DNA of 64,000 nucleotides from an uncultured bacterium (GCA_964482725.1 CAYZYT010000004.1:23824-87823); one strand, 5' to 3'; numbered from the stretch's first letter, positions 1 to 18,340 are shown. Numbers and translations: made by a program. The notes: a model not told the origin generated them from the sequence alone.

Positions 1-3000
1 GTTCAAATCTAACGCCGCTCCACTGCTCACCGTCACGCCTGAAGTATTAAGCGTCCCGTTGCCCAAAGCACCCGCCGCGCCGAGTTGCAAAATACCGCCC
101 GTAACGCTCGTCGCTCCGGTATAAGTGTTGGCTCCGGAAAGAGTGGTCGTCCCGGTCCCGGCCTGCGTGAATGATCCCGTGCCGCTGATCGCGTTGCCGG
201 CTCCGATCGTAAACGCATCGTTCTGGTTGATCGTCAGGTTCCCGCTATTCGATACCAACCCGCTCCCAAGAGCGCCCCCAGCGCCGCCATTCCCGATCTG
301 CAAAGTCCCTGCGGTAATGGTCGTGGTGGTGCTGGCATTGGTGTCACTGGTGAGTGTGAGCTTATCTGTTCCAACTTTCGTCAAACCAAAAGCGCCGTTG
401 ACTCCGCCGCTTAGCGTAATGTCTCCGTTGCTGCTGCCGATACTGCTTGCGGATTGCAATGTCACTGCGCCGCCATACGTCGCCGCTGTGTTGTTACTAT
501 TAGTCAAAGCACCGACTGTACCGGTCGATGTGGTTCCATTGAGATTCAAAGGTACAGCGTTGGCCGTCAGGGCAATCCCGTTCAAATCTAACGCCGCTCC
601 ACTGCTCACCGTCACGCCTGAAGTATTAAGCGTCCCGTTGCCCAAAGCACCCGCCGCGCCGAGTTGCAAAATACCGCCCGTAACGCTTGTCGCGCCGGTG
701 TAGGTGTTCGCTCCGGAAAGAGTGGTCGTCCCGGTCCCTGCTTTGGTGATACCGCCCGCGCCGCTGACAATACCTGTGATCCCAGAAAGGGCGTCGTCGT
801 TATTTACCGTCAACAGCTTGCCCCCGTTATTTACAGCGGCAAGAGTAATCGTCCCCGCCCCACTGACTAACGTTAAATCATCACCAAGCGTGACCGCACC
901 CGTAAATGTAATATCATCGCCCAAGAGACCTCCGCTCGTTACGGTCGTAGGTGCAGCGGCTGTATTCACGACACCGTTGAACCTGAGAGAATGACCCGAG
1001 CTCGTGTAAGTCGTCCCGTTCAAATGAATGTTGGTCGCATTAATATCCTGCGCGCCCGAGGTGAACACGTTGTTCAGGTCCGCCGTAGCTGCGCTCGTAA
1101 CCGTAAAACTCGTCAGATTGTTCGCATGGCCTGCGCTCGTGCCCACAATCCCGCCGACATTCACATCCCCGGCTCCCGCCACGAGATCAAGGGTGAAAGC
1201 GCCGTTGATCGTGCCGGTTCCGTCAAAAATGATGTCGTCCAGAGCGCCGGCGTCGGAGGTGATCGTGCTGTTGGCGGCAAGAGTCGTGGCGCCCGTGAAC
1301 GAAAGAACTCCCACGCCCGTGCTCGTGTACGTCGTCCCGTTCAAATGAATGTTGGTCGCATTAATATCCTGCGCGCCCGCGGTGAACACATTGTTCAGGT
1401 CCGCCGTAGCCGCGCTCGTAACCGTAAAACCCGTCAGATTGTTCGCATGGCCTGCGCTCGTGCCCACAATCCCGCCGACATTCACATTGCCGAGACCGGC
1501 TACGAGATTAAGAGTATTCGCGCCGTTGACTGTACTCGTGAAATCTATATTGCCACCCGCTCCATTAGCTACCGTACCTACTCCGCCGCTGGTATTTATC
1601 GTGACGGCTGTGCCGAGCGTTGCAGGATCACTTAGGGTGACCGTCGCGCCAGCTCCTCCCGTCCCTGTGTTAGACGCTCCGCCAATCGCGGATAAATTAC
1701 CGTTTAAGGTAATGGCCTGGCCGCCGGAAACAAGCGTGATGATCCCGGCCGCTCCGCCGTTAAATCCAGTCCCTGCTCCGCCAGTCGTTGTTATATTGTT
1801 TACTGCCATAGCCCCGTTGTTTGTGTTTATCGTCACCGCTCCACCTGTCCAGCCGGTTCCGGCAGCATTGGCAGCGCCAGTTGTATTTAAATTACCGGCT
1901 AAAGCTACGGTACCGCCACCGCCAGTCACATCTATATCAATAGCGCCGGAAGTCGTTCCCGTTGCGCCCGCGGCTGCAGTGGTCGTGATGGAATGGCCTG
2001 AGTCGAGAGTCACTGCGGTAGTGGCACTGACATCAACCAGGGCTCCCACGGTGGTCACGTCTTCATTAATATTGATCGTGGCGCCCGTTAATGTCGTTGT
2101 TGCACTCCCCGATGCAAGGGATCCATTGGTGGTGAGGGTGCCACTGCCGGCATTGAGCGTTAAGGAGCCATTCGCGACAGCGGTTGATAAAGCTCCCGCA
2201 ACCGTCAAACTATTATTTCTGCTGTTGACGTCTAAATCTCCGCCTAGGGTGGATGTCGCCAATGTGGTATTCACATTATTCACCACGGTCGCATCACCGG
2301 TTGTGCCGCTGGTGCTCAGGGTAATGGCTCCGGCCAAAGCATTCGATGTGTTGTCTAGCGTAATGGCCTTATTGGCTACGTCGGTGGTAAAGCTTGAAGT
2401 GCCTGCCACGGTTAAAGCACCGGTCTGGGTGATCGCCTCGCCTGACCTTGCCGTTAAACTGCCTTCTACGGTGGACAAGCCGAGTTTTAAGGCGGTGGTT
2501 CCGTTATCAACGGCAGCATCCGCGGTGTGAGCGCCGGTGGAAGTGGTGGTAAGAGTGACGCTCCCTGTCACATTGAGCTGATCTAAATTGATGTCGGCAT
2601 TGTCGCCTAATGAGATGAATGCTGCGTCACCCGTTACGGTGAATGTCCCGTTATCCGTGATACCGTTAGTGGTAGCGGTGATGTTTGCATTTCCGCCTAT
2701 GCCGGTATTACTCGTCAGCTGGACATCATCATCATTAACTATAGTGGCATTACCAGAGCCATGGGTATCCAGCGTGATCGCGCCATCAACCCGCAGTAAA
2801 TTAAGATCGATCGCGCCGTTACTGGCGACCGTGGCGAAACTCGCATTACCGGCAACGCTCACGATGCCGCTGTCCGTAATATTATTCCCGGTATGAGCGG
2901 AAAGATCCCCGCCTATCGTTGAAGCGCCAAGGTCTAAGGCCGTGATGCCGTTATCTAAAAGCACATCGCCCGAAGCGCCGCTCGTAGTGAAGCTGACCGC

Positions 3001-6000
3001 CCCCGAAAGTGCGTTGGTATTCCCTAATGTAATCGCTTGATCAGCGACGGTGGTGGCGAAGTTAGACGTGCCACCCACGGTTAAGGCCGTTCCGACGGCT
3101 TGCGTGATCGCGCCGCCGGCGGTTAAATTCAAAATGCCGGTAATGCTGGTTGTTCCCATCTCTAAAGCATTGACATCTACCAGGGTTGCATTGGTTCCGT
3201 TGACAATGCTGACCGCGCCGGTGAAATTATTCGTGGCGGTATTCAGCACGATGCTATTTGCCGCGCCGGGCGTAAGCGTCGTGGTCCCGCTAACAAGAAG
3301 CGCTCCTTCATCGGTGATATTACCGCTGGAAGTCACGACCAAATCGCCGGAGATGGCTGAATCGCCATTGGCATTGCCCAAGATAATGGCATTCGTATCA
3401 TTTAAGGTGACATCGTGGCCGCTTACAACGCGCACACCGCCGGTAAAGTTATTGGCAGCATCAAGCACGATGTTGTTGCCTGAGCCCGCGGTTAAATCCG
3501 TGGTCCCGCCGACAGTCACTGCGCCTGAGTCGCTGATCCCGCCCGCATTTGCCGTAGCGGAAAGATTCCCGCCAATTCCGGTCGCGTTGAAATCAATATC
3601 CGAGGTGTTGACGATGGTGGCATGACCTGTCGCGCCCGTCGTGCTTAATGCAATCTTCCCTGCAACCGCGAGAGTATCTAAATTGATATCCGCATTTGAA
3701 GCCGAAGTGGTGAAGGAAGCATCCCCGCCTACGGTTACGGTGCCGGTGTCGGAAATGGTGCCGTTCGCATCATCGGTTGTTACTGTAAGATCATGGCCGA
3801 TGCCGGACGTGGCAAGGATTGTTCCTCTTGCGCTGGTCGTGTGATTAAAAACAGTCGCATCGCCTGTTCCTCCCGTCGTATTTAATGTAAGATCGCCCAC
3901 AAGGTCGTTGGCCGCATTGGTCATGATGATGTCAGCGCCACTGCCCGCAGAGAAGGTCGTAGAACCTGAGGCTGTGCTGCACGTCACTTTTGAACCTAAA
4001 TTTAAATCGCCCGCTGTGGTGGCCACGGTCCCGGCCACGTTAATGACGCTGGGAGCTGCTGCAATGACACCATTCCCAAAAGTCGTGACGTCACCGGATT
4101 CATTTCCAAGGGTCACCGTGCCGCCATTCAAAAAGGTTGTCGTTCCGGCTATCGAATTCGTTGTGCCAGTAATGGATACGTTGTACCCATTGGCGGTTGT
4201 GGTCAATGCCGTGGTGACTGTCAAATTTCCCGCAAACGATACCGTCGTTCCATCCGCAGTGTCCGTGATCAGGAGGTTCTTCGCATCCACCGAACTGCCA
4301 AAAGACGTTCCGCCTGATTGCGTGATCGTCAACTGATCAAGCGCGTTCCCCGAGGCACCCACAGCGCCGCCGACACTGACTGCTCCGGTGGTATTGATGA
4401 TCAAGGTTTCAGAACCAGCCGCCGCATCACCGAGCACCGAAGACAGGTTGATCGCGTTATTAATTCCGGTACCGACGGTGAGTTGCTTGGTGTTGTTGAG
4501 AGTGACCGCGCCAAGAGTGATAGCACCGGTAGAAGCTCCGCCGATTGCGACAACATCTGTGACTGTGACACCCGTGGAACCGAGGTTGATAACGCCGCTT
4601 GTTGCCGTAATCGTCCCAGCGATATTCTTCAAACCCGAAGTGGCTACCACGCCAGCCGCGAAGGTGTTTGAATCGCCAACCGCGTCGCCGATCGTCGTCG
4701 TGCCACTGTTCAAAAACGTCGTCGTCCCGGCAATCGAATTGGTCCCCCCGGTGAGGGATACATTATAACCACGGGCTGTTGTGATCAACCCCGTGTTGAT
4801 GATGGTATCCCCCGCAAAGAGAATCGTTCCACCATTTGATGTGTCTGAAATGGTTACTGTGTTGGCTTTAACAAGCCCAGAAAATGTAACGCCTAAAGTG
4901 CTACGTGTGATGGTAACATCCCCGGCTGTCGTTGTTCCAATGTCGCCTGTAGTTACGAGACCGCCGGCCTCTGTGATAGTCAAACCGCCGGTAAGATCGA
5001 CCATGGTGCCCATGTTGATCGCGATACTACTCGCTGCAGTTGACCCTATATTAAGTTTGTTGCCGCCGCTTGTAACATTTCCGATGGTCAAAAGGCCCGT
5101 GGCCGCGCCTGCGCCTGGAACAGCATTAATAGTAGCAACGCCCGATAAAGACACGCTATCAAAGGCCAATCCCTGAACACCCGAAGTTGTAAGGGCGCTC
5201 CCTATCCCTAGGGTTAGCGTATTACCACCCCCGATATTCAAAATGCCGAGACCCTGAGTCACGCCCGCGCCTCCGCTCAACCTGTCGGAATTAATTCTGG
5301 CATCGCCAGTCATCGTTACATCGCGACCAAAATCGAGGCCCGTATCATTGGCAAGACTCAAAATACCGCCTGACATCGAGACGGAGGCGGCACCCGTGCC
5401 CAAGGCCTGATTGCTGGTCGTCGCTTTAAGCGTGCCGGCAGAAATGGAAGTAACACCTGTGTAGGTATTAACGCCCGAAAGAGTTTGGGTGCTGGCGCCA
5501 TCTTTGTATAATCCGCCGGTCCCTGAAATTACGCCTGCAAAATTCGTGGTTCCCGTTGTCGCCCCGATTGTCAAAGTTTTCGCGTTGAGATTGACAAGAG
5601 AAGTTGTCGCGCCGGTAAGAGAAGCTATCGCTTGGTCTTCCCCAAGCGCCAACTTAGAACCCCCCGCACCCGAATCATCTATCGTTACGGCGCTGCGTGT
5701 CGCTGCGGGCATTGCCCCTGCCACATTCGCGTTCAAAATTCCAAGGCCTGCTCCCGAGGTGCTACGAATCGTCGTCGGTCCCACATAAGAATTTGCGACA
5801 TCGAGATTGACCGTCACACCATCCACCACAAGGTCGGAATTGGCGGAAGCTCCGCTGATACCTATCGTGTTCACCGTGATCGCGTTTGTTCCGGTTAACG
5901 TTAGTGTGGTTCCGTTTTTGATCAAGCCGCCTGAAAGCGTCAGTGTGCCAGTGCCGGTGTTGCTGATCGTGCCGTTGCCAGCTCCGATAGTCACGGCCTT

Positions 6001-9000
6001 AGCCAGTGTGCCCGTCGCCCCTGTGTATTGCAACGTCCCTCCACCAATGCTTAGGGCCGTATTTTCTCCCAGCGACTGGGCAGCGGTGGCGCTCGCATTA
6101 ACCGTGTTGATGCTTAATATCCCCCCCGCGATCGAAGTTAACCCGGTGTAAGTGTTCAAGCCGGAGCCAGCGAGCGTCACTGTATCCGCCGTTGTTTTAT
6201 TAAGACCCACCGCCCCCGCCAAAACGGATTCAACCAAACCTCTCCGCATGTCATAGGTTGTAGCGCTGGCCAGGGCTGAAGTACCCGACCCGGTAATCCT
6301 GCCTCCATTCAGCAAAGTGATCGAGGCAACGGTGTCGCTGTGATCAACGCCAAGGGCAAAGATAGCGTTCTCGCCGTTCACCGTGAGCGCACTTAAATCA
6401 GAAATCGATCCGGTGGCGCCTTCAGCCAGCGTCCCGTTCGTAACAAGTGTCGCGCCGGTATAAGTATTGGCGCCGGAGAGCGTCCAAGTGCCTGCATCGT
6501 TCTTGGTCAGTGTGCCGGAACCCGTGGTGATCGTCCCGCTGATCAAGCCATTGCCCGCACCTTCAAGCGTAAGATTCTTGTTCGTCGCAGTGATTGCATT
6601 GGCCGCATTGAGTGTGAGCGTGTCCGCATCCGACTGGATCGTTGAATTGTCTACCAGAGTCACCGTACCACCCCAGGTGTTGGAGCCGCTGATATTACGA
6701 AGAGCTCCGTTAGAGCTCACACCACTGCCCGAGAGGCTCAACGTCTCAGCGCCCACCGTGATACCGTTCTGCAATTCAAGAGCAGCGCCACTGGTCACCG
6801 TCACGCCACCGGCTGTGGTCCCCGTGCCCTGCGCGTTCTGGATATTCAACACGCCCGCGTTCACGGCAGTCGCGCCGGTATAGGTGTTCTCACCAGAAAG
6901 TGTCACTGTATCAGTCGTCGTCTTGGTCAAGCCAACGCTACCCCCGAGGATAGCCGAAGCAGAACCGTTCCGCACATCATAGGTGGCACCACTGGTCAAA
7001 GCCGATGTGCCGGTCCCCGTAATGCTTCCGCCGCTTAGGATCACCGATCCCACCGTGTTGGTGTGATCCGCCCCGAGAGCCAACGTGCCGCCAATGGTCA
7101 AGGGTCTTGTGTTGCCGATCTGGTTGCTCTGAAGCAACCTTACCTCGGCTCCGGAGCTTATTGAAAAAGTATTTACAGAACCGGGAATAGCTTCCGCCAA
7201 GGTGGTGTTTAATTCCAAGACACCTCCCTGGACATAAATGGAAGGGGTAAAAGTATTCGCACCGGTCAGGGTGAGCGTTCCTGAGTCCAGCTTGGTGAGA
7301 AGCCCGCCTCCTCCCGAAATGATGCCTGAAAGCGTCAGATCGCTCGTACCTGAAACCGTCAATCGATTCCCCTGAGTGTTTATATCATTACTTACGGAAC
7401 GCGTACCGCTCGCTTGGAGAGTGCCGTCACTGGCGCCAACAGTGAGCGTGCCTATCCCTAGCGCACTATTATTACCAAGAACAAGCGTGCCTCCCGAAAG
7501 CGAGGTCCCCCCGGTATAAGTGTTTGCGCCGGAGAGCGTCACGGTATCCGCCGTCGTCTTGGCCAAACCATTGCCCCCCCCGAGGATAGCCGAAGCAGAA
7601 CCGTTCCGCATATCGAAGGCCGCTGTGCTGGTTAACGTGCCGCCGGTTCCCGTGATGCTGCCGCTGGTCAGAGCGACAGATGCAACCGTGTCGCTGTAAT
7701 TTCCTATCGCCAGAGTTCCACCCGCTACCGTCAATGCCGCCCCATCTGCCAATCTATCCGCCGCCCCCAATGTCAAAGTTCCACCGTTGATATGGACTGT
7801 CCCGGCATCCGACGAGCCGTTCAATGCCGTGCTGCCGCTGGTCTGTGTCAGCGTGCCTGCGCCCAAGTCGGCGTCGATCGTGCCACCTGTGAACCCATAA
7901 GTCGTTGCGGTTAGTTCCCCTGCGCCGCTGATCGTACCGCCGCTGACGAGACTCGCAACGGTTTCCGCAGCGCCCACGCTCAACGTCGCGCCACTTGCTA
8001 CCGTCACTGCGGATGTGTCCGCAATCGCCGTACCCCCTGAAAGTGACAGCGTTCCCGCGCTCACCGCTGTCGTGCCGGTGTAGGTGTTGGTGTTGGTTAA
8101 AGCGAGAGTGCCTGCGCCAGATTTTGTAAGACCTGCGGTGTTACTACTATCGATAATCCCGCCGAGTGTCACAATCTGGCTGTTGGTATCTAATTTGATG
8201 GCGGCCGCCGTGCTGTTCTTGATGCGTATCGCATAATCCGTTCCCGCACTGGCGGCACTGTACTGCAGTGTCCCTCCGGAAAATGTAATATCTCCTCCGT
8301 TGCCTAACGCACCGGAGCCAGCCGCATCGCCAACGCCGGCATTCAGGGTTCCGGCGCTGAGCGTGGTCGCGCCGGTATAAGTATTGGCGCCGGAGAGCGT
8401 CCAAGTGCCTGAGTCGTTCTTGGTCAGTGTGCCGGCACCCGTGGTGATCGTCCCGCTGATCAAGCCATTGCCCGCACCTTCAAGCGTAAGATTCTTGTTC
8501 GTCGCAGTGATTGCATTGGCCGCATTGAGTGTGAGCGTGTCCGCATCCGACTGGATCGTTGAATTGTCTACCAGAGTCACCGTACCACCCCAGGTGTTGG
8601 AGCCGCTGATATTACGAAGAGCTCCGTTAGAGCTCACACCACTGCCCGAGAGGCTCAACGTCTCAGCGCCCACCGTGATACCGTTCTGCAATTCAAGAGC
8701 AGCGCCGCTGGCCACCGTCACTCCACCGGCTGTGGTCCCCGTACCCTGGCTATTCCGAATATTCAACACGCCCGCGTCCACGGCAGTCGCGCCGGTATAA
8801 GTATTGGTGCCAGAGAGCGTCCAAGTGCCTGCATCGTTCTTGGTCAGTGTGCCGGAACCCGTGGTGATCGTCCCGCTGATCAAGCCATTGCCCGCACCTT
8901 CAAGCGTAAGATTCTTGTTCGTCGCAGTGATTGCATTGGCCGCATTGAGTGTGAGCGTGTCCGCATCCGACTGGATCGTTGAATTGTCTACCAGAGTCAC

Positions 9001-11025
9001 CGTACCACCCCAGGTGTTGGAGCCGCTGATATTACGAAGAGCTCCGTTAGAGCTCACACCACTGCCCGAGAGGCTCAACGTCTCAGCGCCCACCGTGATA
9101 CCGTTCTGCAATTCAAGAGCAGCGCCGCTGGCCACCGTCACTCCACCGGCTGTGGTCCCCGTACCCTGGCTATTCCGAATATTCAACACGCCCGCGTCCA
9201 CGGCAGTCGCGCCGGTATAGGTGTTGGCGCCGGAGAGCGTCACTGTATCAGTCGTCGTCTTGGTCAAGCCAACGCTACCCCCGAGGATAGCCGAAGCAGA
9301 ACCGTTCCGCACATCATAGGTGGCACCACTGGTCAAAGCCGATGTGCCGGTCCCCGTAATGCTTCCGCCGCTTAGGATCACTGATCCCACCGTGTCGGTG
9401 CGATTCGCCCCGAGAGCCAAGGTGCCGCCAGCAACTGTCAATGCGGCCGCATCGTCTAAACGATTATTGGCACCAAGCGCAAGAGTACCGCTGTTGATGT
9501 TCACGGTCGTCCCGGCTTCTGTCCCGTTCAGTGTCGTTGTCCCACTTGTAACTGTCACTGTGCCCGCGCCAAGATTCGCGTCCACCGTACCCGCTTGAAG
9601 AGCATACGTCGCGGCCGTCAACGTTTGGCCCGCGCCACCCAACGTACCGCCGGTCTGTGTATATCCAGCTACACCTTCAGCGCCCGCCAGGGTTAATGTC
9701 CCACCCGCCACGGTCAAGGTCGAAGCAGCATTCAACCGCCCCGCAGAACCAAGACCGACTGTTCCGTTGGAAGTAACCGCACCATCGCCAAGCATTGCAT
9801 TCACTGTCCCGCCGGTCAGGCCGTACGTCGTGGCCGTGAGAGTCCCCGTTGGCGCATTCAGCGAACCTCCGCTCATGTTAAATACGCCGACCGTGTCAGT
9901 ATTCGCTCCGTTCATATCTAAAATACCTGTCCCAGAAACCGTAACCGTCGCCGAATTATCCAAACGATTACTTGAGCCAAGCGTTAACGTCCCGGCGCTG
10001 ATCCCCACTGTCGTAGCGCCCGAAGCCCCGTTTAATGCCGTCGAGCCGGTCACATTCATCGTCCCGGTACCGAGATTGGCCGTCACCGTGCCACCGCTTA
10101 ATCCATAAGTCCCGGCTGTGATTGTGCCCGTGCCGTTGAGAGAACCACTGCTCATATTGAATGTCCCTACAGTATCGGTCAATCCTGCGCCGGTATCTAA
10201 AATGCCTCCAGCAACGGTAACTGTGGATGTATCAATGATCTGGTTTGATTGAACCAGCTCTGCTGTGCCACCGTTGACTGTCAGATTGCCAGCTATCGAA
10301 TTATTACCCGTGGTATTTAAATCCAGTTCGCCCGCCGTCACCGTCGTAAGGCCGGTATAAATATTTGCGCCCGAGAGAACCCAAGTGCCGTTGCCGCTTT
10401 TTGTCACGGCTCGCGTGCCACCGTCTGCTCCATTGCTAATAATGCCGCTGACGGTGTTATTGCCCGTGTCTGTGCCGGTCAGGATAAGTGTCTTTGCGCC
10501 ATTGCCTACACCTGTTATATCTCCAGTGATATTCAATAGAAATTCATCATTAGCACCGTTATTCGTAACGGTGTAATTTCCCGTGTAGGACTGTTTGATA
10601 TCGGCTGCAATAGTTTGTGTCTGCACGACACCGTTATTCACCGTGATCGAACCACCGGCTGTGTTTACCAGGATCTCTTGGGATCCAGCGCCACCCGTAC
10701 CGATCGTATAACTCGCGGCACTAGCCGTATCGAAAATTATTCCTAAAACTGCTGCCCCGCTAACATTGATCCCGGCGACTCCTGCGCCGGCCGCCCCACT
10801 AAATGTCGCAGTATTTGTAGCAAGCGGAAACGCTTTGCCGCCCCAGTTCGCATCAAGATTCCACACATCAGACGTCGTACCCGTCCATGTAGCATCTGCC
10901 GCAAACGCGGGGGTCACGGGTGAAAAGACGAGGGAAAGGGCGGCAACGATGGCAAGGAGCTTTTTCGCCGGCCCTTTTTTCTGGGGCGAGGGATGATTCC
11001 CGAAAAGTTTTTTAAGAGTGATCAT
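1..11025 (-). CDS. Giant secreted repeat protein built from autotransporter-associated beta-strand (PATR-type) repeats; N-terminus at 11025, C-terminus beyond the window start (partial, at least 3670 codons)
   Basis: Manual minus-strand translation starts with ATG at 11025..11023, preceded by AAGGAG 9 nt upstream. The N-terminus is MITLKKLFGNHPSPQKKGPAKKLLAIVAALSLVFSPVTPAFA followed by ADATWTG, a signal peptide with an AFA-AD cleavage site. Many units of the form G-T-W-T-L-S-G-x-N-T-Y-T-G-x-T-x-V-x-A-G-x-L-x-L follow. Spot translations at 8384-8450 and 1-170 are in the same frame and still show PATR-like units. It is absent from the ORF track because it has no in-window stop; the long P/V/A-rich plus-strand ORFs there are antisense artefacts. 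Confidence 0.8.
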   Translation of the reverse strand, partial: MITLKKLFGNHPSPQKKGPAKKLLAIVAALSLVFSPVTPAFAADATWTGTTSDVWNLDANWGGKAFPLATNTATFSGAAGAGVAGINVSGAAVLGIIFDTASAASYTIGTGGAGSQEILVNTAGGSITVNNGVVQTQTIAADIKQSYTGNYTVTNNGANDEFLLNITGDITGVGNGAKTLILTGTDTGNNTVSGIISNGADGGTRAVTKSGNGTWVLSGANIYTGLTTVTAGELDLNTTGNNSIAGNLTVNGGTAELVQSNQIIDTSTVTVAGGILDTGAGLTDTVGTFNMSSGSLNGTGTITAGTYGLSGGTVTANLGTGTMNVTGSTALNGASGATTVGISAGTLTLGSSNRLDNSATVTVSGTGILDMNGANTDTVGVFNMSGGSLNAPTGTLTATTYGLTGGTVNAMLGDGAVTSNGTVGLGSAGRLNAASTLTVAGGTLTLAGAEGVAGYTQTGGTLGGAGQTLTAATYALQAGTVDANLGAGTVTVTSGTTTLNGTEAGTTVNINSGTLALGANNRLDDAAALTVAGGTLALGANRTDTVGSVILSGGSITGTGTSALTSGATYDVRNGSASAILGGSVGLTKTTTDTVTLSGANTYTGATAVDAGVLNIRNSQGTGTTAGGVTVASGAALELQNGITVGAETLSLSGSGVSSNGALRNISGSNTWGGTVTLVDNSTIQSDADTLTLNAANAITATNKNLTLEGAGNGLISGTITTGSGTLTKNDAGTWTLSGTNTYTGATAVDAGVLNIRNSQGTGTTAGGVTVASGAALELQNGITVGAETLSLSGSGVSSNGALRNISGSNTWGGTVTLVDNSTIQSDADTLTLNAANAITATNKNLTLEGAGNGLISGTITTGAGTLTKNDSGTWTLSGANTYTGATTLSAGTLNAGVGDAAGSGALGNGGDITFSGGTLQYSAASAGTDYAIRIKNSTAAAIKLDTNSQIVTLGGIIDSSNTAGLTKSGAGTLALTNTNTYTGTTAVSAGTLSLSGGTAIADTSAVTVASGATLSVGAAETVASLVSGGTISGAGELTATTYGFTGGTIDADLGAGTLTQTSGSTALNGSSDAGTVHINGGTLTLGAADRLADGAALTVAGGTLAIGNYSDTVASVALTSGSITGTGGTLTSTAAFDMRNGSASAILGGGNGLAKTTADTVTLSGANTYTGGTSLSGGTLVLGNNSALGIGTLTVGASDGTLQASGTRSVSNDINTQGNRLTVSGTSDLTLSGIISGGGGLLTKLDSGTLTLTGANTFTPSIYVQGGVLELNTTLAEAIPGSVNTFSISSGAEVRLLQSNQIGNTRPLTIGGTLALGADHTNTVGSVILSGGSITGTGTSALTSGATYDVRNGSASAILGGSVGLTKTTTDTVTLSGENTYTGATAVNAGVLNIQNAQGTGTTAGGVTVTSGAALELQNGITVGAETLSLSGSGVSSNGALRNISGSNTWGGTVTLVDNSTIQSDADTLTLNAANAITATNKNLTLEGAGNGLISGTITTGSGTLTKNDAGTWTLSGANTYTGATLVTNGTLAEGATGSISDLSALTVNGENAIFALGVDHSDTVASITLLNGGRITGSGTSALASATTYDMRRGLVESVLAGAVGLNKTTADTVTLAGSGLNTYTGLTSIAGGILSINTVNASATAAQSLGENTALSIGGGTLQYTGATGTLAKAVTIGAGNGTISNTGTGTLTLSGGLIKNGTTLTLTGTNAITVNTIGISGASANSDLVVDGVTVNLDVANSYVGPTTIRSTSGAGLGILNANVAGAMPAATRSAVTIDDSGAGGSKLALGEDQAIASLTGATTSLVNLNAKTLTIGATTGTTNFAGVISGTGGLYKDGASTQTLSGVNTYTGVTSISAGTLKATTSNQALGTGAASVSMSGGILSLANDTGLDFGRDVTMTGDARINSDRLSGGAGVTQGLGILNIGGGNTLTLGIGSALTTSGVQGLAFDSVSLSGVATINAVPGAGAATGLLTIGNVTSGGNKLNIGSTAASSIAINMGTMVDLTGGLTITEAGGLVTTGDIGTTTAGDVTITRSTLGVTFSGLVKANTVTISDTSNGGTILFAGDTIINTGLITTARGYNVSLTGGTNSIAGTTTFLNSGTTTIGDAVGDSNTFAAGVVATSGLKNIAGTITATSGVINLGSTGVTVTDVVAIGGASTGAITLGAVTLNNTKQLTVGTGINNAINLSSVLGDAAAGSETLIINTTGAVSVGGAVGASGNALDQLTITQSGGTSFGSSVDAKNLLITDTADGTTVSFAGNLTVTTALTTTANGYNVSITGTTNSIAGTTTFLNGGTVTLGNESGDVTTFGNGVIAAAPSVINVAGTVATTAGDLNLGSKVTCSTASGSTTFSAGSGADIIMTNAANDLVGDLTLNTTGGTGDATVFNHTTSARGTILATSGIGHDLTVTTDDANGTISDTGTVTVGGDASFTTSASNADINLDTLAVAGKIALSTTGATGHATIVNTSDIDFNATGIGGNLSATANAGGISDSGAVTVGGTTDLTAGSGNNIVLDAANNFTGGVRVVSGHDVTLNDTNAIILGNANGDSAISGDLVVTSSGNITDEGALLVSGTTTLTPGAANSIVLNTATNNFTGAVSIVNGTNATLVDVNALEMGTTSITGILNLTAGGAITQAVGTALTVGGTSNFATTVADQAITLGNTNALSGAVSFTTSGASGDVLLDNGITALDLGASTIGGDLSAHTGNNITDSGIVSVAGNASFATVASNGAIDLNLLRVDGAITLDTHGSGNATIVNDDDVQLTSNTGIGGNANITATTNGITDNGTFTVTGDAAFISLGDNADINLDQLNVTGSVTLTTTSTGAHTADAAVDNGTTALKLGLSTVEGSLTARSGEAITQTGALTVAGTSSFTTDVANKAITLDNTSNALAGAITLSTSGTTGDATVVNNVNTTLATSTLGGDLDVNSRNNSLTVAGALSTAVANGSLTLNAGSGTLTTNGSLASGSATTTLTGATININEDVTTVGALVDVSATTAVTLDSGHSITTTAAAGATGTTSGAIDIDVTGGGGTVALAGNLNTTGAANAAGTGWTGGAVTINTNNGAMAVNNITTTGGAGTGFNGGAAGIITLVSGGQAITLNGNLSAIGGASNTGTGGAGATVTLSDPATLGTAVTINTSGGVGTVANGAGGNIDFTSTVNGANTLNLVAGLGNVNVGGIVGTSAGHANNLTGFTVTSAATADLNNVFTAGAQDINATNIHLNGTTYTSTGVGVLSFTGATTLAANSTITSDAGALDDIIFDGTGTINGAFTLDLVAGAGDVNVGGIVGTSAGHANNLTSFTVTSAATADLNNVFTSGAQDINATNIHLNGTTYTSSGHSLRFNGVVNTAAAPTTVTSGGLLGDDITFTGAVTLGDDLTLVSGAGTITLAAVNNGGKLLTVNNDDALSGITGIVSGAGGITKAGTGTTTLSGANTYTGATSVTGGILQLGAAGALGNGTLNTSGVTVSSGAALDLNGIALTANAVPLNLNGTTSTGTVGALTNSNNTAATYGGAVTLQSASSIGSSNGDITLSGGVNGAFGLTKVGTDKLTLTSDTNASTTTTITAGTLQIGNGGAGGALGSGLVSNSGNLTINQNDAFTIGAGNAISGTGSFTQAGTGTTTLSGANTYTGATSVTGGILQLGAAGALGNGTLNTSGVTVSSGAALDLN

Positions 11026-11391
11026 GGGGTGGGCTCCTTTTTAAAATGAACCCCGCCGCATTCTTGTGAATGCGAGAGACGGGGTAAATTTAATTTGCCA
11101 GCGATGTGTGGCGAAAGATGTGAACTGGGATAGCGTGAAAATCTTTGAAGGGAGTGATGGATTACATTTTTTTAAAATGGGAATCGTCCTTTTAAATCTT
11201 TAAGAATGTTTCGTCTATAATATTTCTCATAAAGACTTCGTAATCTCAAACCGCACTACGTCTCTGTAGATACGGCAAAGGACAAATAATCTGAAGCGGC
11301 TGAATTCTATACCCGGTCTATAGAGACACGCAACTCTTTTTATCCCTTTTTATCCCTTCCCCGCGGACCCCTCAGAGGCTGCGCGCCTTGT

Positions 11392-11745
11392 CAGGGACAG
11401 GTCTGCTTCGCATCCTTAGACCAGTCCCTAAAAAACAAAGGTGACAATCACCGGCAAAAGCGACTGCCACCGGCGTACCAACAGGGACAGGTCTGTTATT
11501 CCTTCCAAGACCTGTCCCTAATTACTTCCAAAACCAGTCCTGAATCCCCAGGGACAGGTCTGCTTCGCAGTCTTAGACCAGTCCCTAAAAAACAAAGGCG
11601 ACAATCACCGGCAAAAGAGACTGCCACCGGCGTACCAACAGGGACAGGTCTGTTATTCCTTCCAAGACCTGTCCCTAATTACTTCCAAAACCAGTCCTGA
11701 ATCCCCAGGGACAGGTCTGCTTCGCATTCCTAGACCTGTCCCCGG
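11392..11745. repeat. 157-bp tandem repeat (copies at 11392, 11549 and a partial copy at 11706); each unit holds two hairpins with 12-nt arms AGGGACAGGTCT / AGACC(A/T)GTCCCT and 12-13-nt loops
   Basis: Direct reading gives a period of exactly 157 bp and about 97 percent identity between copies. Five hairpins lie at 11393-11429, 11483-11519, 11550-11586, 11640-11676 and 11707-11743. Confidence 0.85.
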
Positions 11746-12024
11746 AAAAACAACGGTGGCGGGGAAGAAAACAGGATCCGCCCTGTTTCAAAAATTTTTC
11801 GCTCCCTTGGATTTAATCGCCCGTGGTACAGATGATTAAGCAAGATAGAGCTTTATAGTATTCGCTAGGCCAAAAAAATACTTACTAAACCACCCTCATT
11901 TGCTTTTTTCCTATTCGCCAGATATACTTCCTTCAGAGATAAAGAAAGTGGAACGCGCTATTACGACCGAAGTCTTTGGAAAACGCACTGCAGCTCGATC
12001 GCTCTTTTTGAAAGGGGTTTGGGT

Positions 12025-16519: not shown

Positions 16520-16676
16520 AGGGACGGTTCTCGCCAACCCCTTGAAATCCAAGAAGATACGAAAGAACTGTCCCCTATTATGGGTTTTCTTTGAAAACCG
16601 TTTCTCTGGGGACAGGTCTGCTGTAACTTATTGTGAACCGGAGGGTTAGCGAGAACCGTCCCTGGGTGGGGGGGGG
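16520..16676. repeat. Convergent-terminator region: perfect 15-bp long-range inverted repeat (AGGGACGGTTCTCGC at 16520-16534 and GCGAGAACCGTCCCT at 16649-16663), an internal copy of the 14-mer GGGACAGGTCTGCT (16609-16622) shared with the 157-bp array, and a G9 tract (16668-16676)
   Basis: Read directly. It lies between the stop of the histidine kinase (16519) and the stop of the convergent minus-strand gene (16677). Confidence 0.6.
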
Positions 16677-18330
16677 CTAATCTTCGTGACGGATCCCCTG
16701 AACGCCCGCGGCATTCAAAAGGAGCGTAACGGCAGGACTTGATTTTTGGGAACCCACTTGTCCGACGCGAAGAAGGATCTTGGCCTCACCCTTCGCGGGG
16801 ATCCATGCGGGTTGAATATCAAAAAAAGTTTCTTTGGTTTCAATTTGCGCGCACTTTTCTTTTCGCCCGTCGCTCATCACTTCCAAGCGATAGACCGTCC
16901 CCTCTTTGGGGGCAACGCCCTGCTCAACCGCCAAATCCTTGAAGGATAATTTCCCTCCGGAGAATGAAAATCCATCCAGCGGATTGACGCGAGAAAACCA
17001 GTAACGAACGATCCTGTCACGCCGCTCGATCAGGGTCTTGGCAATAGTCTCTGCGTCTTTGGCGTCGCTATATTGCCCAGCCTTGACCACCGCCCGGATA
17101 TCCTCATCCGAAAAGCTCAGCAGAATTTTCGCGGCCCAAAATCCATCGGCACGGGTCACGAGCCGGAACGATTCATAGGGAAATTGCGCTTTATAGCGCG
17201 CCGGGTCAAAAAGTTCGTTGTTAAAATAACCCACGGCCGGAGACGCCTGGATCTTTTCACCCGCCAGACGCCATTTTTTCTGCCAGGGTTTCTCCCAAAA
17301 CCCTAAGGCCAGGATCGCTTTGGAGGTCTCTCCATAATCGACCACGTATTCATAACCCAACATCGGCACCTTCGGACCTTCCTGCGTCGCGCCCAGGGCT
17401 CCGTTAAAATCAGCCAGGTAATGCTTCATCACGACCTGACCGTTCTCCTCGACCGACATTTCCAAGGTGTCGCTTTCCCGGAGATCATAATGGTTCAACC
17501 AGGAGGCGAAGATCCCCAGCGCCCTGAGCTCCCGGCGATCGCGATGGTTCACCAGGTCCGCGGGATCATCCTTCCGTCGGGATTCGAAACTGAAGATCCC
17601 GTGATAGTTCCCTTTCATGATCTTGCACGCCGAAGCCCGGTAAAGACCCGTCTCGTTCTGAGGAAGAACCATCAGGTACTCTTCAAATCGTTTTTGGCTG
17701 AGCTCCTTTTTAAAGCCCGTGTCCTCCCAAGTCGTTGCGGCCGGAGCCACCTGGAACTGATCGGGTTTGATCGAAAGGATCGTGAACTGCGGCACCTCAT
17801 AACCCAAGGCGTAGTAAAACCGGCTGGCAATAACCTCCGCCCCTGTCACCAGTTCCATGTTCCCCTGAGGATCGAATTCCAAAAGATATTCGTCTCCCCG
17901 CGCGTCCTTGACCCAGAACCGGGGATAGATCCCCCGCTGTTCCGCCGCCATAACCTGCAAGGGTTGGCTCATGTCAGGCCCTGCGGTTTCCTGATATCCT
18001 TTTTCAAGAGCTTCCGGGGAGCGTTTCTCGCGGCCCTGCCGATTCACAAAAAATCCGGAATCCGGCACTTCATCAAAAATGTTCACGTTTTTCGAAGGAA
18101 GCTCTTTTCCGGAAAGCTTCCTTCCCCAACGCCCGAGATCGAGTTGGTTGACGCCTTCGCTATAAACATTCTGGTCAAAAAGGTCGCTGTAAAACGAGGA
18201 TTCGCTTTCTTTAAATTTTACTGTCTCGCCGGCCAGAGACATCCCCGCAAATCCGAGCATCCCCGCCCCGAAGACCCAAAGCGCCAGTGTCTGACGCGCT
18301 TGCTTTGTTTTTTTAAGTCGAGTGTTCATG
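16677..18330 (-). CDS. Secreted hypothetical protein with a signal peptide and kinase-like catalytic signatures (FWVK, NHYD, DFNG)
   Basis: ATG at 18330 has AAAGG 8 nt upstream; the track start at 18338 is a GTG. The signal peptide is TLALWVFGAGMLGFAGMSLAGE. The spacing NHYDLRESD ...(20 aa)... ADFNGALG resembles a kinase catalytic loop followed by a DFG motif. Confidence 0.6.
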
Positions 18331-18340
18331 TCTAGCACCT

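What the first reader, a model, noticed from the sequence alone, without database searches (positions are those of the whole stretch)
11392..11745. 157-bp tandem array of paired palindromic hairpins in the divergent region between the giant adhesin gene and a c-di-GMP/two-component operon
2.25 copies of an exactly 157-bp unit are present. Each unit carries two hairpins with the same 12-nt arms (AGGGACAGGTCT ... AGACCWGTCCCT) but different loops (GCTTCGCATCCT versus GTTATTCCTTCCA). The units are separated by conserved spacers (AAAAAACAAAGGYGACAATCACCGGCAAAAGMGACTGCCACCGGCGTACCAA and AATTACTTCCAAAACCAGTCCTGAATCCCC). That gives five near-identical dyad sites in 350 bp of non-coding DNA. The pattern is not CRISPR-like, since the units are 157 bp with no unique spacers and no cas genes. 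It is not a typical REP either, since it is a tandem, complex unit. Candidate roles are an array of operator sites for a dimeric regulator (possibly the downstream REC/GGDEF-EAL system), a structured RNA leader, or a recombination or cruciform-forming element. The 14-mer GGGACAGGTCTGCT recurs once more at 16609, immediately downstream of the same operon.
Basis: seen in the sequence. Interest (0 to 1): 0.7.

Follow-up and report, generated by a model that had tools for sequence, protein, structure and literature searches.

The report
Cluster of mobile palindromic repeats
The five hairpins are real, but they are copies of a small, selfish palindromic DNA repeat that is scattered through many bacterial genomes, not a control region built for the neighbouring genes.

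Summary
Window 11392-11745 carries 2.2 copies of a 157-bp unit (96-97% identical) with five 37-nt hairpins: 12-nt arms and 13-nt loops.

The locus-specific reading does not hold. The host is a Candidatus Omnitrophota bacterium.
- Orthologous REC / GGDEF-EAL / kinase operons in six relatives (84-89% aa) have no hairpins. Their conserved promoter block starts about 90 bp beyond the array.
- A closer relative (91-94% nt) has a different array: 66-67-bp period and two ORF6N genes inserted. Homology with the window breaks exactly at an arm/loop junction.
- The same hairpin occurs singly in at least 10 unrelated metagenome contexts, in either orientation, often 6-9 nt after a stop codon. Two more lie between convergent genes at 16520-16663.
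- The arm core GGGAC-N-G-K-TCT recurs across more than 10 phyla.
- In Clostridia this core forms the inverted repeats flanking IS200-like Y1 transposase genes with a C-terminal HTH. The arms fit the published GGGGWSAS motif of TIRYT/"TIRtron" repeats.

Best reading: a cluster of REP/MITE-like miniature palindromes, mobilised in trans by a TIRYT-type transposase and reshaped by local duplication and recombination. No cognate transposase was found in the window. This is an ordinary kind of element and a new member of it.

The parts
11392..11745 (.). Whole array: A1-L1-B1-L2-A2-L1-B2-L2-A3. It is 2.2 copies of a 157-bp unit.
11393..11429 (.). Hairpin A1. Arms AGGGACAGGTCT / AGACCAGTCCCT with a central A.A mismatch; loop GCTTCGCATCCTT.
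   Evidence: ssDNA fold -8.3 kcal/mol, z -3.5
11430..11482 (-). Linker 1, copy a (53 nt). On the minus-strand RNA, 11471-11440 forms a 13-pair hairpin that includes G.U pairs, followed by UUUGUUUUUU (terminator-like). As DNA it is unstructured.
11483..11519 (.). Hairpin B1. Perfect 12-bp stem; loop GTTATTCCTTCCA.
   Evidence: -12.1 kcal/mol, z -5.7
11520..11549 (.). Linker 2, copy a (30 nt, AATTACTTCCAAAACCAGTCCTGAATCCCC). A homologous linker separates the hairpins in the relative's array (L128/L134).
11550..11586 (.). Hairpin A2 (loop GCTTCGCAGTCTT, central A.A mismatch).
11587..11639 (-). Linker 1, copy b. It differs from copy a at two positions. The minus-strand hairpin is kept, with one mismatch.
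11640..11676 (.). Hairpin B2, identical to B1.
11677..11706 (.). Linker 2, copy b.
11707..11743 (.). Hairpin A3 (loop GCTTCGCATTCCT, right arm AGACCTGTCCCC = GGGGACAG on the other strand). The Logan contig of the same sequence starts exactly here.
11769..11799 (.). Flanking small hairpin AAACAGG/CCTGTTT followed by CAAAAATTTTT. It is shared with the close relative L128. The first ~20 nt after A3 resemble the start of linker 1.
11834..11935 (+). Sequence block upstream of the REC gene (GATTAAGCAAGATAG...GATATACTTC). It is conserved in relatives that have no hairpins. This is the likely promoter region of the operon, and it lies outside the array.
   Evidence: one search compared
1..11025 (-). 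5' part of the giant secreted PATR-repeat (autotransporter/adhesin-like) gene. ATG at 11025, signal peptide; it runs off the window. It is absent at this position in relatives at 84-89% aa identity.
16520..16575 (.). Hairpin C. Arms AGGGACGGTTCT / AGAACTGTCCCC, 32-nt loop. It starts immediately after the stop codon of the histidine kinase gene.
16608..16663 (.). Hairpin D. Hybrid arms GGGGACAGGTCT / AGAACCGTCCCT, 32-nt partly paired loop. It ends 13 nt from the stop of the convergent 553-aa gene.

Best explanation
The array is a cluster of miniature, non-autonomous palindromic repeats of the REP/REPIN/MITE kind.

What each hairpin is. Each 37-nt hairpin is two inverted copies of a 12-nt end motif, (A/G)GGGAC-N-G-K-TCT, joined by a short loop. 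It looks like a transposon reduced to its two terminal inverted repeats.

Where the motif comes from. The motif belongs to the GGGGWSAS family of inverted repeats. These flank the genes of IS200-like single-strand (HUH/Y1) transposases that carry a C-terminal helix-turn-helix: TIRYT, TnpA-Y1 subclass 2.1, relatives of the REP-associated RAYTs.

Inferred mechanism. A TIRYT encoded elsewhere in the genome recognises the motif in hairpins that form on single-stranded DNA. It cuts and rejoins there, so copies spread to new intergenic sites, typically just after stop codons. Once several copies lie close together, unequal or illegitimate recombination and slippage between the identical arms reshape them.

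Local history. In this lineage hairpins accumulated between a newly acquired giant adhesin gene and the conserved promoter of the REC/GGDEF-EAL/kinase operon. The ORF6N genes seen in a close relative were lost or gained by exchange at the arms. A 157-bp block (A-L1-B-L2) was then duplicated recently (97% identity).

Likely local effects are incidental: stable hairpins in any transcript that crosses them, a terminator-like element in linker 1 for leftward transcription, and a recombination and assembly-breaking hot spot.

Shown versus inferred.
- Shown: the anatomy, the dispersal, the lack of conservation at the orthologous locus, the breakpoints at the arms, and the link between the core motif and Y1 transposase genes in Clostridia.
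- Inferred: that an Omnitrophota TIRYT mobilises this particular variant, and the single-strand cut-and-rejoin chemistry, which has been demonstrated only for E. coli RAYT (as reviewed in PMC6006769).
For: 1. Dispersal. The exact hairpin type is found in 16 metagenome contigs. Three are homologous to this locus; the others carry single copies in unrelated gene contexts. Two further hairpins lie between convergent genes in the same window.
2. Not conserved where a regulator site should be. Six relatives with orthologous operons (84-89% aa) have no hairpins upstream of REC or downstream of the kinase. The upstream gene differs, and the conserved promoter block starts at about 11834.
3. Rapid turnover. 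The 91-94% nt relative has a 66-67-bp-period array, two ORF6N genes each followed 9 nt after the stop by hairpins, an orphan left arm, and a left arm followed by two right arms. Window/relative homology ends at 11405, the arm/loop junction.
4. Superfamily. Of 156 instances (these loci plus 11 viral contigs), 136 have exactly GGGACGGTTCT. About half have extra species-specific palindromic flanks. Contexts are 59 tandem, 28 convergent and 8 divergent.
5. Transposase link, found from the motif side. L028 has a Y1_Tnp gene between six tandem GGGACGGTTCT and four AGAACCGTCCC. L107 has a Y1_Tnp+HTH gene between two identical palindromes.
6. Transposase link, tested independently from the protein side. 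Homologues in Butyrivibrio proteoclasticus and Petroclostridium sp. X23 are flanked by the core in inverted orientation.
7. Protein identity. Best NCBIfam match is REP-associated tyrosine transposase. The only PDB match is 4ER8, TnpA-REP.
8. Literature. TIRYT genes are flanked by TIRs sharing GGGGWSAS, and TIR families occur as dimers or clusters (PMC3733652). Subclass 2.1 carries a C-terminal HTH and has TIR consensus GGGG[AT][CG]A[CG] (PMC6006769). The window arms GGGGACAG and AGGGACAG fit.
9. The stem is conserved in sequence, not by compensation: 0 double changes and 13 unpaired cells in 19 distinct copies. Hybrid arms occur in hairpin D, L045 and L059.
Against: - No Y1 transposase gene lies in the 64-kb window.
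- The only Omnitrophota TIRYT family I could retrieve is flanked by a different repeat, GGGGTCAGGGCTTTACA, which is absent from the window. The cognate enzyme for this variant is therefore unidentified.
- The genome-wide copy number in the source genome is unknown. Only two loci fall in 64 kb, and there are none in about 100 kb of relatives.
- The transposase link was shown for the GTT variant of the core in Clostridia. The AGG variant differs at 2 of 11 positions.
- All five hairpins share one loop polarity, unlike the alternating REPs of E. coli BIMEs.
- No GTAG tag is present.
- Linker 1 has a strand-specific, terminator-like RNA fold that a purely selfish-DNA reading does not need.
- The motif-selected loci are biased by construction.
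Confidence: 0.72

Rival explanations
1. Tandem small-RNA genes on the minus strand. Each 157-nt unit would be an sRNA made of hairpin A, a GGA-rich linker, hairpin B and an intrinsic terminator. It might act as a CsrB/RsmZ-like protein sponge or as a regulator of the adhesin gene downstream of it.
For: - On the minus strand, linker 1 folds into a 13-pair hairpin that needs G.U pairs (A-C mismatches on the plus strand). It is followed by UUUGUUUUUU, once per unit.
- Minus-strand loops read AAGGAUGCGAAGC, AGGAAUG... and UGGAAGGAAUAAC, so they present GGA.
- The whole region folds with z -7.6.
Against: - GGA is missing from A2 and from half of the A loops in the relative.
- The relative's array lacks linker 1 entirely.
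- No promoter-like site was found.
- There is no Rfam match even at E<=1.
- No covariation.
- The same hairpin occurs in both orientations relative to genes elsewhere.
- The plus strand folds just as significantly (z -7.2).
Confidence: 0.07
2. An array of operator sites. A dimeric DNA-binding regulator binds the five dyads on duplex DNA and controls the divergent adhesin gene and/or the c-di-GMP/two-component operon.
For: - Five near-identical dyads lie in a divergent intergenic region.
- The arms are conserved as sequence rather than by pairing, as protein-binding half-sites would be.
Against: - The adjacent REC and REC-GGDEF-EAL proteins have no DNA-binding domain.
- Orthologous operons keep their promoter block but have no dyads.
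- The dyad also sits after stop codons and between convergent genes at unrelated loci.
- Half-sites 24 bp apart centre to centre, separated by a 13-nt spacer, are atypical for operators (general knowledge).
Confidence: 0.03
3. Site-specific recombination sites that exchange small gene cassettes, in the manner of integron attC sites. The hairpins would be the crossover points for gain and loss of the ORF6N genes.
For: - In the close relative, a ~700-bp ORF6N segment is bounded by direct copies of GGGACAGGTCTG. The window/relative breakpoint is exactly at the arm/loop junction.
- Each ORF6N gene is followed by hairpins.
Against: - No recombinase gene was seen near the array.
- Several hairpins follow each gene instead of one.
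- A more distant relative has an ORF6N gene at the same place without hairpins.
- ORF6N is not found next to the motif in any of the 119 other loci.
- Homologous or illegitimate exchange between 12-nt repeats explains the same junctions.
Confidence: 0.05

Closest known systems
TIRYT / 'TIRtron' inverted-repeat families (Di Nocera et al. 2013, PMC3733652; TnpA-Y1 subclass 2.1 of Quentin et al. 2018, PMC6006769)
   Same: - The end motif fits GGGGWSAS (GGGGACAG, AGGGACAG).
- Copies occur as singles, inverted dimers and clusters.
- In Clostridia the same core flanks Y1 transposase genes with a C-terminal HTH, in inverted orientation.
   Different: - The cognate gene was not found for the Omnitrophota AGG variant.
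- Here the two repeats are only 13 nt apart, so the unit is a 37-nt hairpin.
- There is a higher-order 157-bp tandem duplication.
- The 2018 survey reported no REP-like partners for subclass 2.1.
REP / BIME / REPIN elements with their RAYT transposase (E. coli, Pseudomonas)
   Same: - Imperfect palindromes of about 35 nt.
- Mostly extragenic and after gene ends.
- Clustered.
- A stem mismatch is present.
- The partner enzyme is a close relative: best NCBIfam and PDB hits are RAYT.
   Different: - There is no GT[AG]G tag.
- The stem sequence itself is conserved across phyla.
- The five copies share one polarity instead of alternating.
- The linkers are not the BIME linker types.
CGTC-tagged REPs and Rickettsia palindromic elements (RPE)
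   Same: - Small palindromes without an adjacent transposase.
- The arms contain CGTC/GACG in the GTT variant.
- In-frame intragenic copies exist: L041, three insertions in a dihydrolipoyl dehydrogenase ORF that stays open.
   Different: In CGTC REPs the tag is an unpaired 4-mer next to an 8-9-bp stem with a 4-5-nt loop and a CCA tail. Here an 11-12-nt motif forms the stem.
MITEs (miniature inverted-repeat transposable elements)
   Same: Two terminal inverted repeats of an autonomous element with the coding part deleted. They are dispersed and non-autonomous.
   Different: No target-site duplication is evident. The presumed enzyme is an HUH single-strand transposase, not a DDE enzyme.
Integron attC sites
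   Same: Imperfect palindromes following small genes, with breakpoints at a fixed place in the palindrome in one comparison.
   Different: There is no GTTRRRY core and no integrase nearby. Several hairpins follow each gene, and copies are scattered singly through genomes.
CsrB/RsmZ-type sponge RNAs
   Same: Repeated hairpins, some with GGA in the loop on the minus strand, and a terminator at the end of each unit.
   Different: GGA is not conserved, there is no Rfam match, and the unit is not conserved even in the closest relative.

Membership tests
TIRYT/TIRtron-associated inverted-repeat family | The repeat begins with the motif GGGGWSAS. | tested here: met
   GGGGACAG at 16608 and on the minus strand of A3 (11743-11736). 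The other arms read AGGGACAG (7 of 8). Consensus taken from PMC3733652 and PMC6006769.
TIRYT/TIRtron-associated inverted-repeat family | A Y1 (HUH) transposase gene with a C-terminal HTH, flanked by the repeat in inverted orientation. | tested here: inconclusive
   Met for the GTT variant of the core in L028, L107, L170 and L172. There is no Y1 gene in the window. The Omnitrophota TIRYT I retrieved has another TIR. The rest of the host genome could not be read.
TIRYT/TIRtron-associated inverted-repeat family | Repeat copies dispersed as singles, dimers or clusters away from the gene. | tested here: met
   Inverted dimers (the hairpins) at two window loci and in at least 10 unrelated metagenome contexts. 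Clusters in the window, L128/L134 and L124.
REP/BIME-RAYT (REPtron) | A 20-40-nt imperfect palindrome able to form a stem-loop. | tested here: met
   37 nt with a 12-bp stem, with or without a central mismatch. ssDNA folding energy is -8.3 to -12.1 kcal/mol.
REP/BIME-RAYT (REPtron) | A conserved GT[AG]G tetranucleotide at the foot of the hairpin. | tested here: not met
   The flanks are C|AGGGAC...GTCCCT|A. No GTAG is present.
REP/BIME-RAYT (REPtron) | Clusters in which successive REPs alternate in orientation. | tested here: not met
   All five loops are pyrimidine-rich on the plus strand, so they share one polarity.
REP/BIME-RAYT (REPtron) | Tens to hundreds of extragenic copies per genome. 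| not testable with these tools
   Only 64 kb of the source genome is available: 7 hairpins at 2 loci.
CRISPR array | Identical short repeats separated by unique spacers, usually with cas genes. | tested here: not met
   The spacers are themselves repeated (linker 1 twice, linker 2 twice).
Integron attC | R''/L''...L'/R' palindrome with a GTTRRRY core, plus an integron integrase. | tested here: not met
   No GTTRRRY lies at the hairpin ends. The genes next to the array are an adhesin-like gene and a REC gene. The remaining window ORFs were not screened for intI.
Known structured RNA families (Rfam 15), including CsrB/Rsm sponges | A match to a covariance model. | tested here: not met
   No hit at gathering score in the window or in 18 related loci. 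Only chance-level hits appear at E<=1 on 11030-12020.
Intrinsic terminator | A G+C-rich hairpin followed directly by a U run. | tested here: not met
   The A and B hairpins are followed by A-rich or mixed sequence. Only the linker-1 hairpin fits, and only on the minus strand.

The most novel reading that the evidence does not exclude
The GGGAC-N-G-K-TCT hairpins may be a third, cross-phylum superfamily of REP-like elements alongside the GTAG and CGTC superfamilies. They would be the miniature, non-autonomous partners of the HTH-bearing Y1 transposases (TIRYT, subclass 2.1), for which the 2018 survey found no REP-like partners.

Their hallmark would be an 11-nt stem sequence held nearly invariant from Clostridia and Bacilli to Bacteroidota, Acidobacteriota, Actinomycetota and Omnitrophota. 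They would be able to insert in frame into genes and to drive local gene gain and loss. The Omnitrophota array would be one active outpost of this system.
Probability: 0.45. Interest if true: 0.5.

Novelty: new member of a known kind. Interest (0 to 1): 0.3.

Why it matters
For this window the result is mainly a correction. The array should not be annotated as a regulatory region of the adhesin gene or the c-di-GMP operon. Its copy number is also an assembly-sensitive feature.

More broadly, the result ties a hairpin that breaks assemblies in uncultured Omnitrophota to a transposase-linked repeat family. It shows that one 11-nt core is shared by such repeats in many phyla. It also gives concrete substrate/enzyme pairs, for example the Butyrivibrio proteoclasticus TIRYT and its flanking X-core-X' hairpins. 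These could be used to test whether TIRYT enzymes really mobilise these elements, which has not been shown experimentally as far as I know.

Tried and rejected
- Degenerate genome-collection scan. It was too permissive. It did, however, reveal the superfamily.
- Exact-string literature search for the 11-mers. It returned only unrelated primers.
- Rfam at gathering and at E<=1. Nothing.
- All-against-all clustering of neighbouring ORFs in 119 loci. No dominant neighbour emerged. The 3-member Y1 cluster only became meaningful after the orphan half-site scan.
It found Y1 genes in L015 and L041, but the L041 gene is flanked by other repeats and neither gene abuts the GGGAC core. I set these aside as unrelated.
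- ORF6N protein as the cognate binder. It is present only in loci homologous to this one, so I rejected it as a general partner.
- Omnitrophota TIRYT family P0249 as the cognate enzyme. Its inverted repeat is GGGGTCAGGGCTTTACA, which is not in the window.
- Viral contigs. There were 0 hits for the AGG variant and 11 for the GTT variant, so this is not a phage feature.
- CsrA-sponge idea. GGA is not conserved in the loops.
- CGTC-REP membership. The architecture does not fit.
- Sigma-70 promoter scan of the intergenic region. No sites were found, so transcription direction across the array remains unknown.

Full report
OBSERVATION

Tandem Repeats Finder gives 11392-11742, period 157, 2.2 copies, 96% matches and no indels. 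The repeat finder gives two 157-nt copies at 97% identity and five in-register hairpin copies with spacing 90/67/90/67.

The 12-nt arm with up to two mismatches occurs 19 times in the window against 3.2 +/- 1.7 in shuffles. Ten matches lie in the array and four at 16520-16663.

The layout is A1 (11393-11429), linker 1 (53 nt), B1 (11483-11519), linker 2 (30 nt), A2, linker 1, B2, linker 2, A3 (11707-11743). Both loops are 13 nt. A1 and A2 carry a central A.A mismatch. As single-stranded DNA the hairpins fold at -8.3 to -12.1 kcal/mol.

The second locus holds two complete hairpins, not just a 14-mer.
- Hairpin C (16520-16575) starts directly after the kinase gene's stop codon.
- Hairpin D (16608-16663) ends 13 nt from the stop of the convergent gene.
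- C has arms of the type GGGACGGTTCT. D has one arm of each type.

SETTING AND HOST

The minus-strand gene to the left starts at ATG 11025. It has a signal peptide, contains PATR autotransporter repeats, and runs off the window after more than 3,675 aa. To the right lie a stand-alone REC protein, a REC-GGDEF-EAL protein and a PAS histidine kinase.

Release factor 1 and the GGDEF-EAL protein have their closest named relatives in Candidatus Omnitrophota MAGs. A short-read contig of the identical sequence begins exactly at hairpin A3. Contigs of relatives also end inside their arrays. The repeat therefore breaks assemblies, and the copy number here should be treated with caution.

IS IT LOCUS-SPECIFIC? 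NO.

I fetched the orthologous operon from six relatives whose GGDEF-EAL protein is 84-89% identical (L139-L146).
- None has a hairpin upstream of the REC gene or downstream of the kinase.
- The upstream gene differs in each: a glycosyltransferase, a Mg-chelatase-like gene, or an ORF6N gene.
- The adhesin gene is absent at this position.
- What these relatives share with the window is a block beginning GATTAAGCAAGATAG, at about window 11834, and running to the REC start. That block is the likely promoter region, and the array lies about 90 bp outside it (one search compared).

The two REC proteins have no DNA-binding domain.

A closer relative (91-94% nt; L134 plus L128) does have hairpins, but arranged differently.
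- Its period is 66-67 bp: hairpin A plus linker 2 only, with no linker 1.
- It has two diverged ORF6N genes, each followed 9 nt after its stop by hairpins.
- It has an orphan left arm, and one left arm followed by two right arms.
- Homology with the window ends at 11405, the arm/loop junction.

A third contig (L124) carries a homologous adhesin gene, either the orthologue in a more distant relative or a paralogue. Two hairpins there lie between convergent genes.

IS THE HAIRPIN DISPERSED? YES.

A metagenome scan for the specific hairpin found 16 contigs. Apart from the three homologous ones, they carry single hairpins in unrelated contexts.
- Several start 6-9 nt after a stop codon (L123, L129, L130).
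- They occur in either orientation relative to the upstream gene.
- One lies in a divergent region, and some may be intragenic.
- Similarity stops at the ends of the 35-37-nt hairpin.
- The loop tends to read GCTTCGC followed by pyrimidines, as expected of copies of one source.

In 19 distinct copies there is no compensatory change. Every departure is an unpaired cell. The stem is therefore conserved as sequence. This says nothing in favour of a selected RNA fold.

THE WIDER FAMILY

My only genome-collection scan used the degenerate pattern GGGACNGKTCT-N(8-38)-AGAMCNGTCCC. These came from Bacillota, Bacteroidota, Omnitrophota, Acidobacteriota, Actinomycetota, Gemmatimonadota, Planctomycetota, Elusimicrobiota, Atribacterota and others.

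By my own estimate, a uniform-composition model would give some tens of chance hits in the whole collection. The hits are clearly not chance, for two reasons.
- 136 of 156 instances (these loci plus the 11 viral contigs) have exactly GGGACGGTTCT, although the pattern allowed eight variants per arm.
- About half continue into longer, species-specific palindromes.

Contexts are mostly tandem (59) or convergent (28) gene pairs, rarely divergent (8). Some genomes hold 3-5 copies in 8 kb (L107, L112, L150). In a Muribaculaceae MAG, three copies sit in frame inside a dihydrolipoyl dehydrogenase gene whose reading frame stays open.

Hybrid hairpins with one arm of each variant occur in the window (hairpin D), in another Omnitrophota MAG (L045) and in a Syntrophaceae MAG (L059). 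This links the window's AGG variant to the common GTT variant.

THE TRANSPOSASE LINK

A scan for half-sites without a nearby partner found locus L028. It has six tandem GGGACGGTTCT (21-nt period) and four AGAACCGTCCC bracketing a 258-aa gene. That gene, and homologues in L107 and L101, are Y1_Tnp (IS200-like) proteins.
- L107 and L101 give marginal matches to C-terminal HTH or DnaA-C-like domains.
- Their best NCBIfam match is REP-associated tyrosine transposase.
- Their only PDB match is 4ER8, the E. coli REP-associated enzyme.
- In L107 the gene lies between two identical 46-nt palindromes of the family.

These loci had been selected by the motif, so I also tested the link from the protein side.
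- The Butyrivibrio proteoclasticus homologue is flanked by GGGACGGTTCT 165 nt upstream and AGAACCGTCCC 11 nt downstream. Each core sits in the loop of a small local hairpin.
- Two gene copies in Petroclostridium sp. X23 each have the core about 60 nt upstream. One has the inverted core at its 3' end and the other a degenerate one.

This matches published descriptions.
- Di Nocera et al. named such genes TIRYT. They reported flanking inverted repeats sharing GGGGWSAS, and moderately abundant repeat families organised as dimers or clusters (PMC3733652).
- Quentin et al. equated them with TnpA-Y1 subclass 2.1, which has a C-terminal HTH and TIR consensus GGGG[AT][CG]A[CG]. They found no REP-like partners for that subclass (PMC6006769).

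The window arms read GGGGACAG or AGGGACAG.

WHAT REMAINS INFERRED

- The window has no Y1 gene.
- The only Omnitrophota TIRYT family I could retrieve (P0249 and relatives, also L101) is flanked by GGGGTCAGGGCTTTACA. This also fits GGGGWSAS but is absent from the window.
- The enzyme for the AGG variant, its copy number in the source genome, and the chemistry are therefore not shown.
- Cleavage and rejoining of REP DNA has been demonstrated only for the E. coli RAYT, as reviewed in PMC6006769.

RIVALS

The most interesting rival is a minus-strand small RNA.
- For it: linker 1 folds only on that strand, into a 13-pair hairpin using G.U pairs and followed by a U run. Several loops would present GGA.
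- Against it: the closest relative lacks linker 1, GGA is not conserved, there is no promoter-like site and no Rfam match, and the plus strand folds equally well.

The operator-array reading and the integron-like cassette reading are each contradicted by several observations. Details are in the rival entries.

VERDICT

This is a cluster of REP/MITE-like miniature palindromes of the TIRYT-associated GGGGWSAS kind, recently duplicated and recombined at a variable junction of an Omnitrophota genome. The kind of element is known; this is a new member of it. The cross-phylum conservation of the core and its REPtron-like arrangement in Clostridia are worth a specialist's follow-up.

Noticed in passing
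L041:7125-7909 (Muribaculaceae MAG JAFTDD010000077.1): Three copies of the GGGGACGGTTCT...AGAACCGTCCCC palindrome lie inside a dihydrolipoyl dehydrogenase-like ORF, one with a triplicated right half. The ORF stays open across all of them, so they add peptide segments of the form GDGS...EPSP. This resembles the in-frame Rickettsia palindromic elements.
   Followed up: partly
L028:4449-4564 and 5710-5783 (Clostridiales UBA3678): Six and four tandem 21-nt units, each carrying one core motif, bracket the Y1 transposase gene. Neighbouring units share short complementary stems (TTTCAAAAA / TTTTTGAAA), so each core would sit in a hairpin loop. This is an iteron-like REPtron edge.
   Followed up: partly
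L158-L169 and L101 (Omnitrophota TIRYT loci): A 303-aa Y1 transposase with a DnaA-C-like tail is flanked by inverted GGGGTCAGGGCTTTACA. It sits at one conserved position just downstream of a 3,848-aa Laminin_G_3 giant protein gene and next to an Xre/RES toxin-antitoxin pair. Many homologues are on ~1-kb contigs, which suggests the flanks break assemblies.
   Followed up: partly
L134 (reverse strand) 1283-1816 and 2077-2607; L128 1-363; L139 7963-8496: ORF6N-domain genes (176-177 aa) occupy the region upstream of the REC operon in relatives. There are two diverged copies with near-identical 3' ends in the closest relative and none in the window. This suggests gene conversion and loss at this junction.
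   Followed up: partly
window 8366-9241: A 420-bp tandem repeat (2.1 copies, 98% identical) lies inside the giant PATR-repeat gene. It is a recently duplicated protein repeat module.
   Followed up: no
window 11336-11358: A perfect 10-nt tandem repeat CTTTTTATCC (2.3 copies) lies 35 bp to the left of the array. It is also present in the close relative L134.
   Followed up: no
window 16664-16676: A G-rich run GGGTGGGGGGGGG lies between hairpin D and the stop codon of the convergent 553-aa gene of unknown function. The homopolymer could be length-variable.
   Followed up: no
L129:2700-5520 (metagenome Ga0247841_10024003): Three hairpins of the AGG type share about 30 nt of conserved flank on both sides (…GATGTTTGGNTGGAAGC…/…TGAGGATTCTAAGTGTCCGGAGTGGATTC…). 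In that genome the hairpin is therefore embedded in a larger repeated unit.
   Followed up: no
window 16677-18338 (minus) and orthologues in L141, L143-L146: A conserved ~550-aa protein with no Pfam match always sits next to an Omp85-family gene in this Omnitrophota clade.
   Followed up: no
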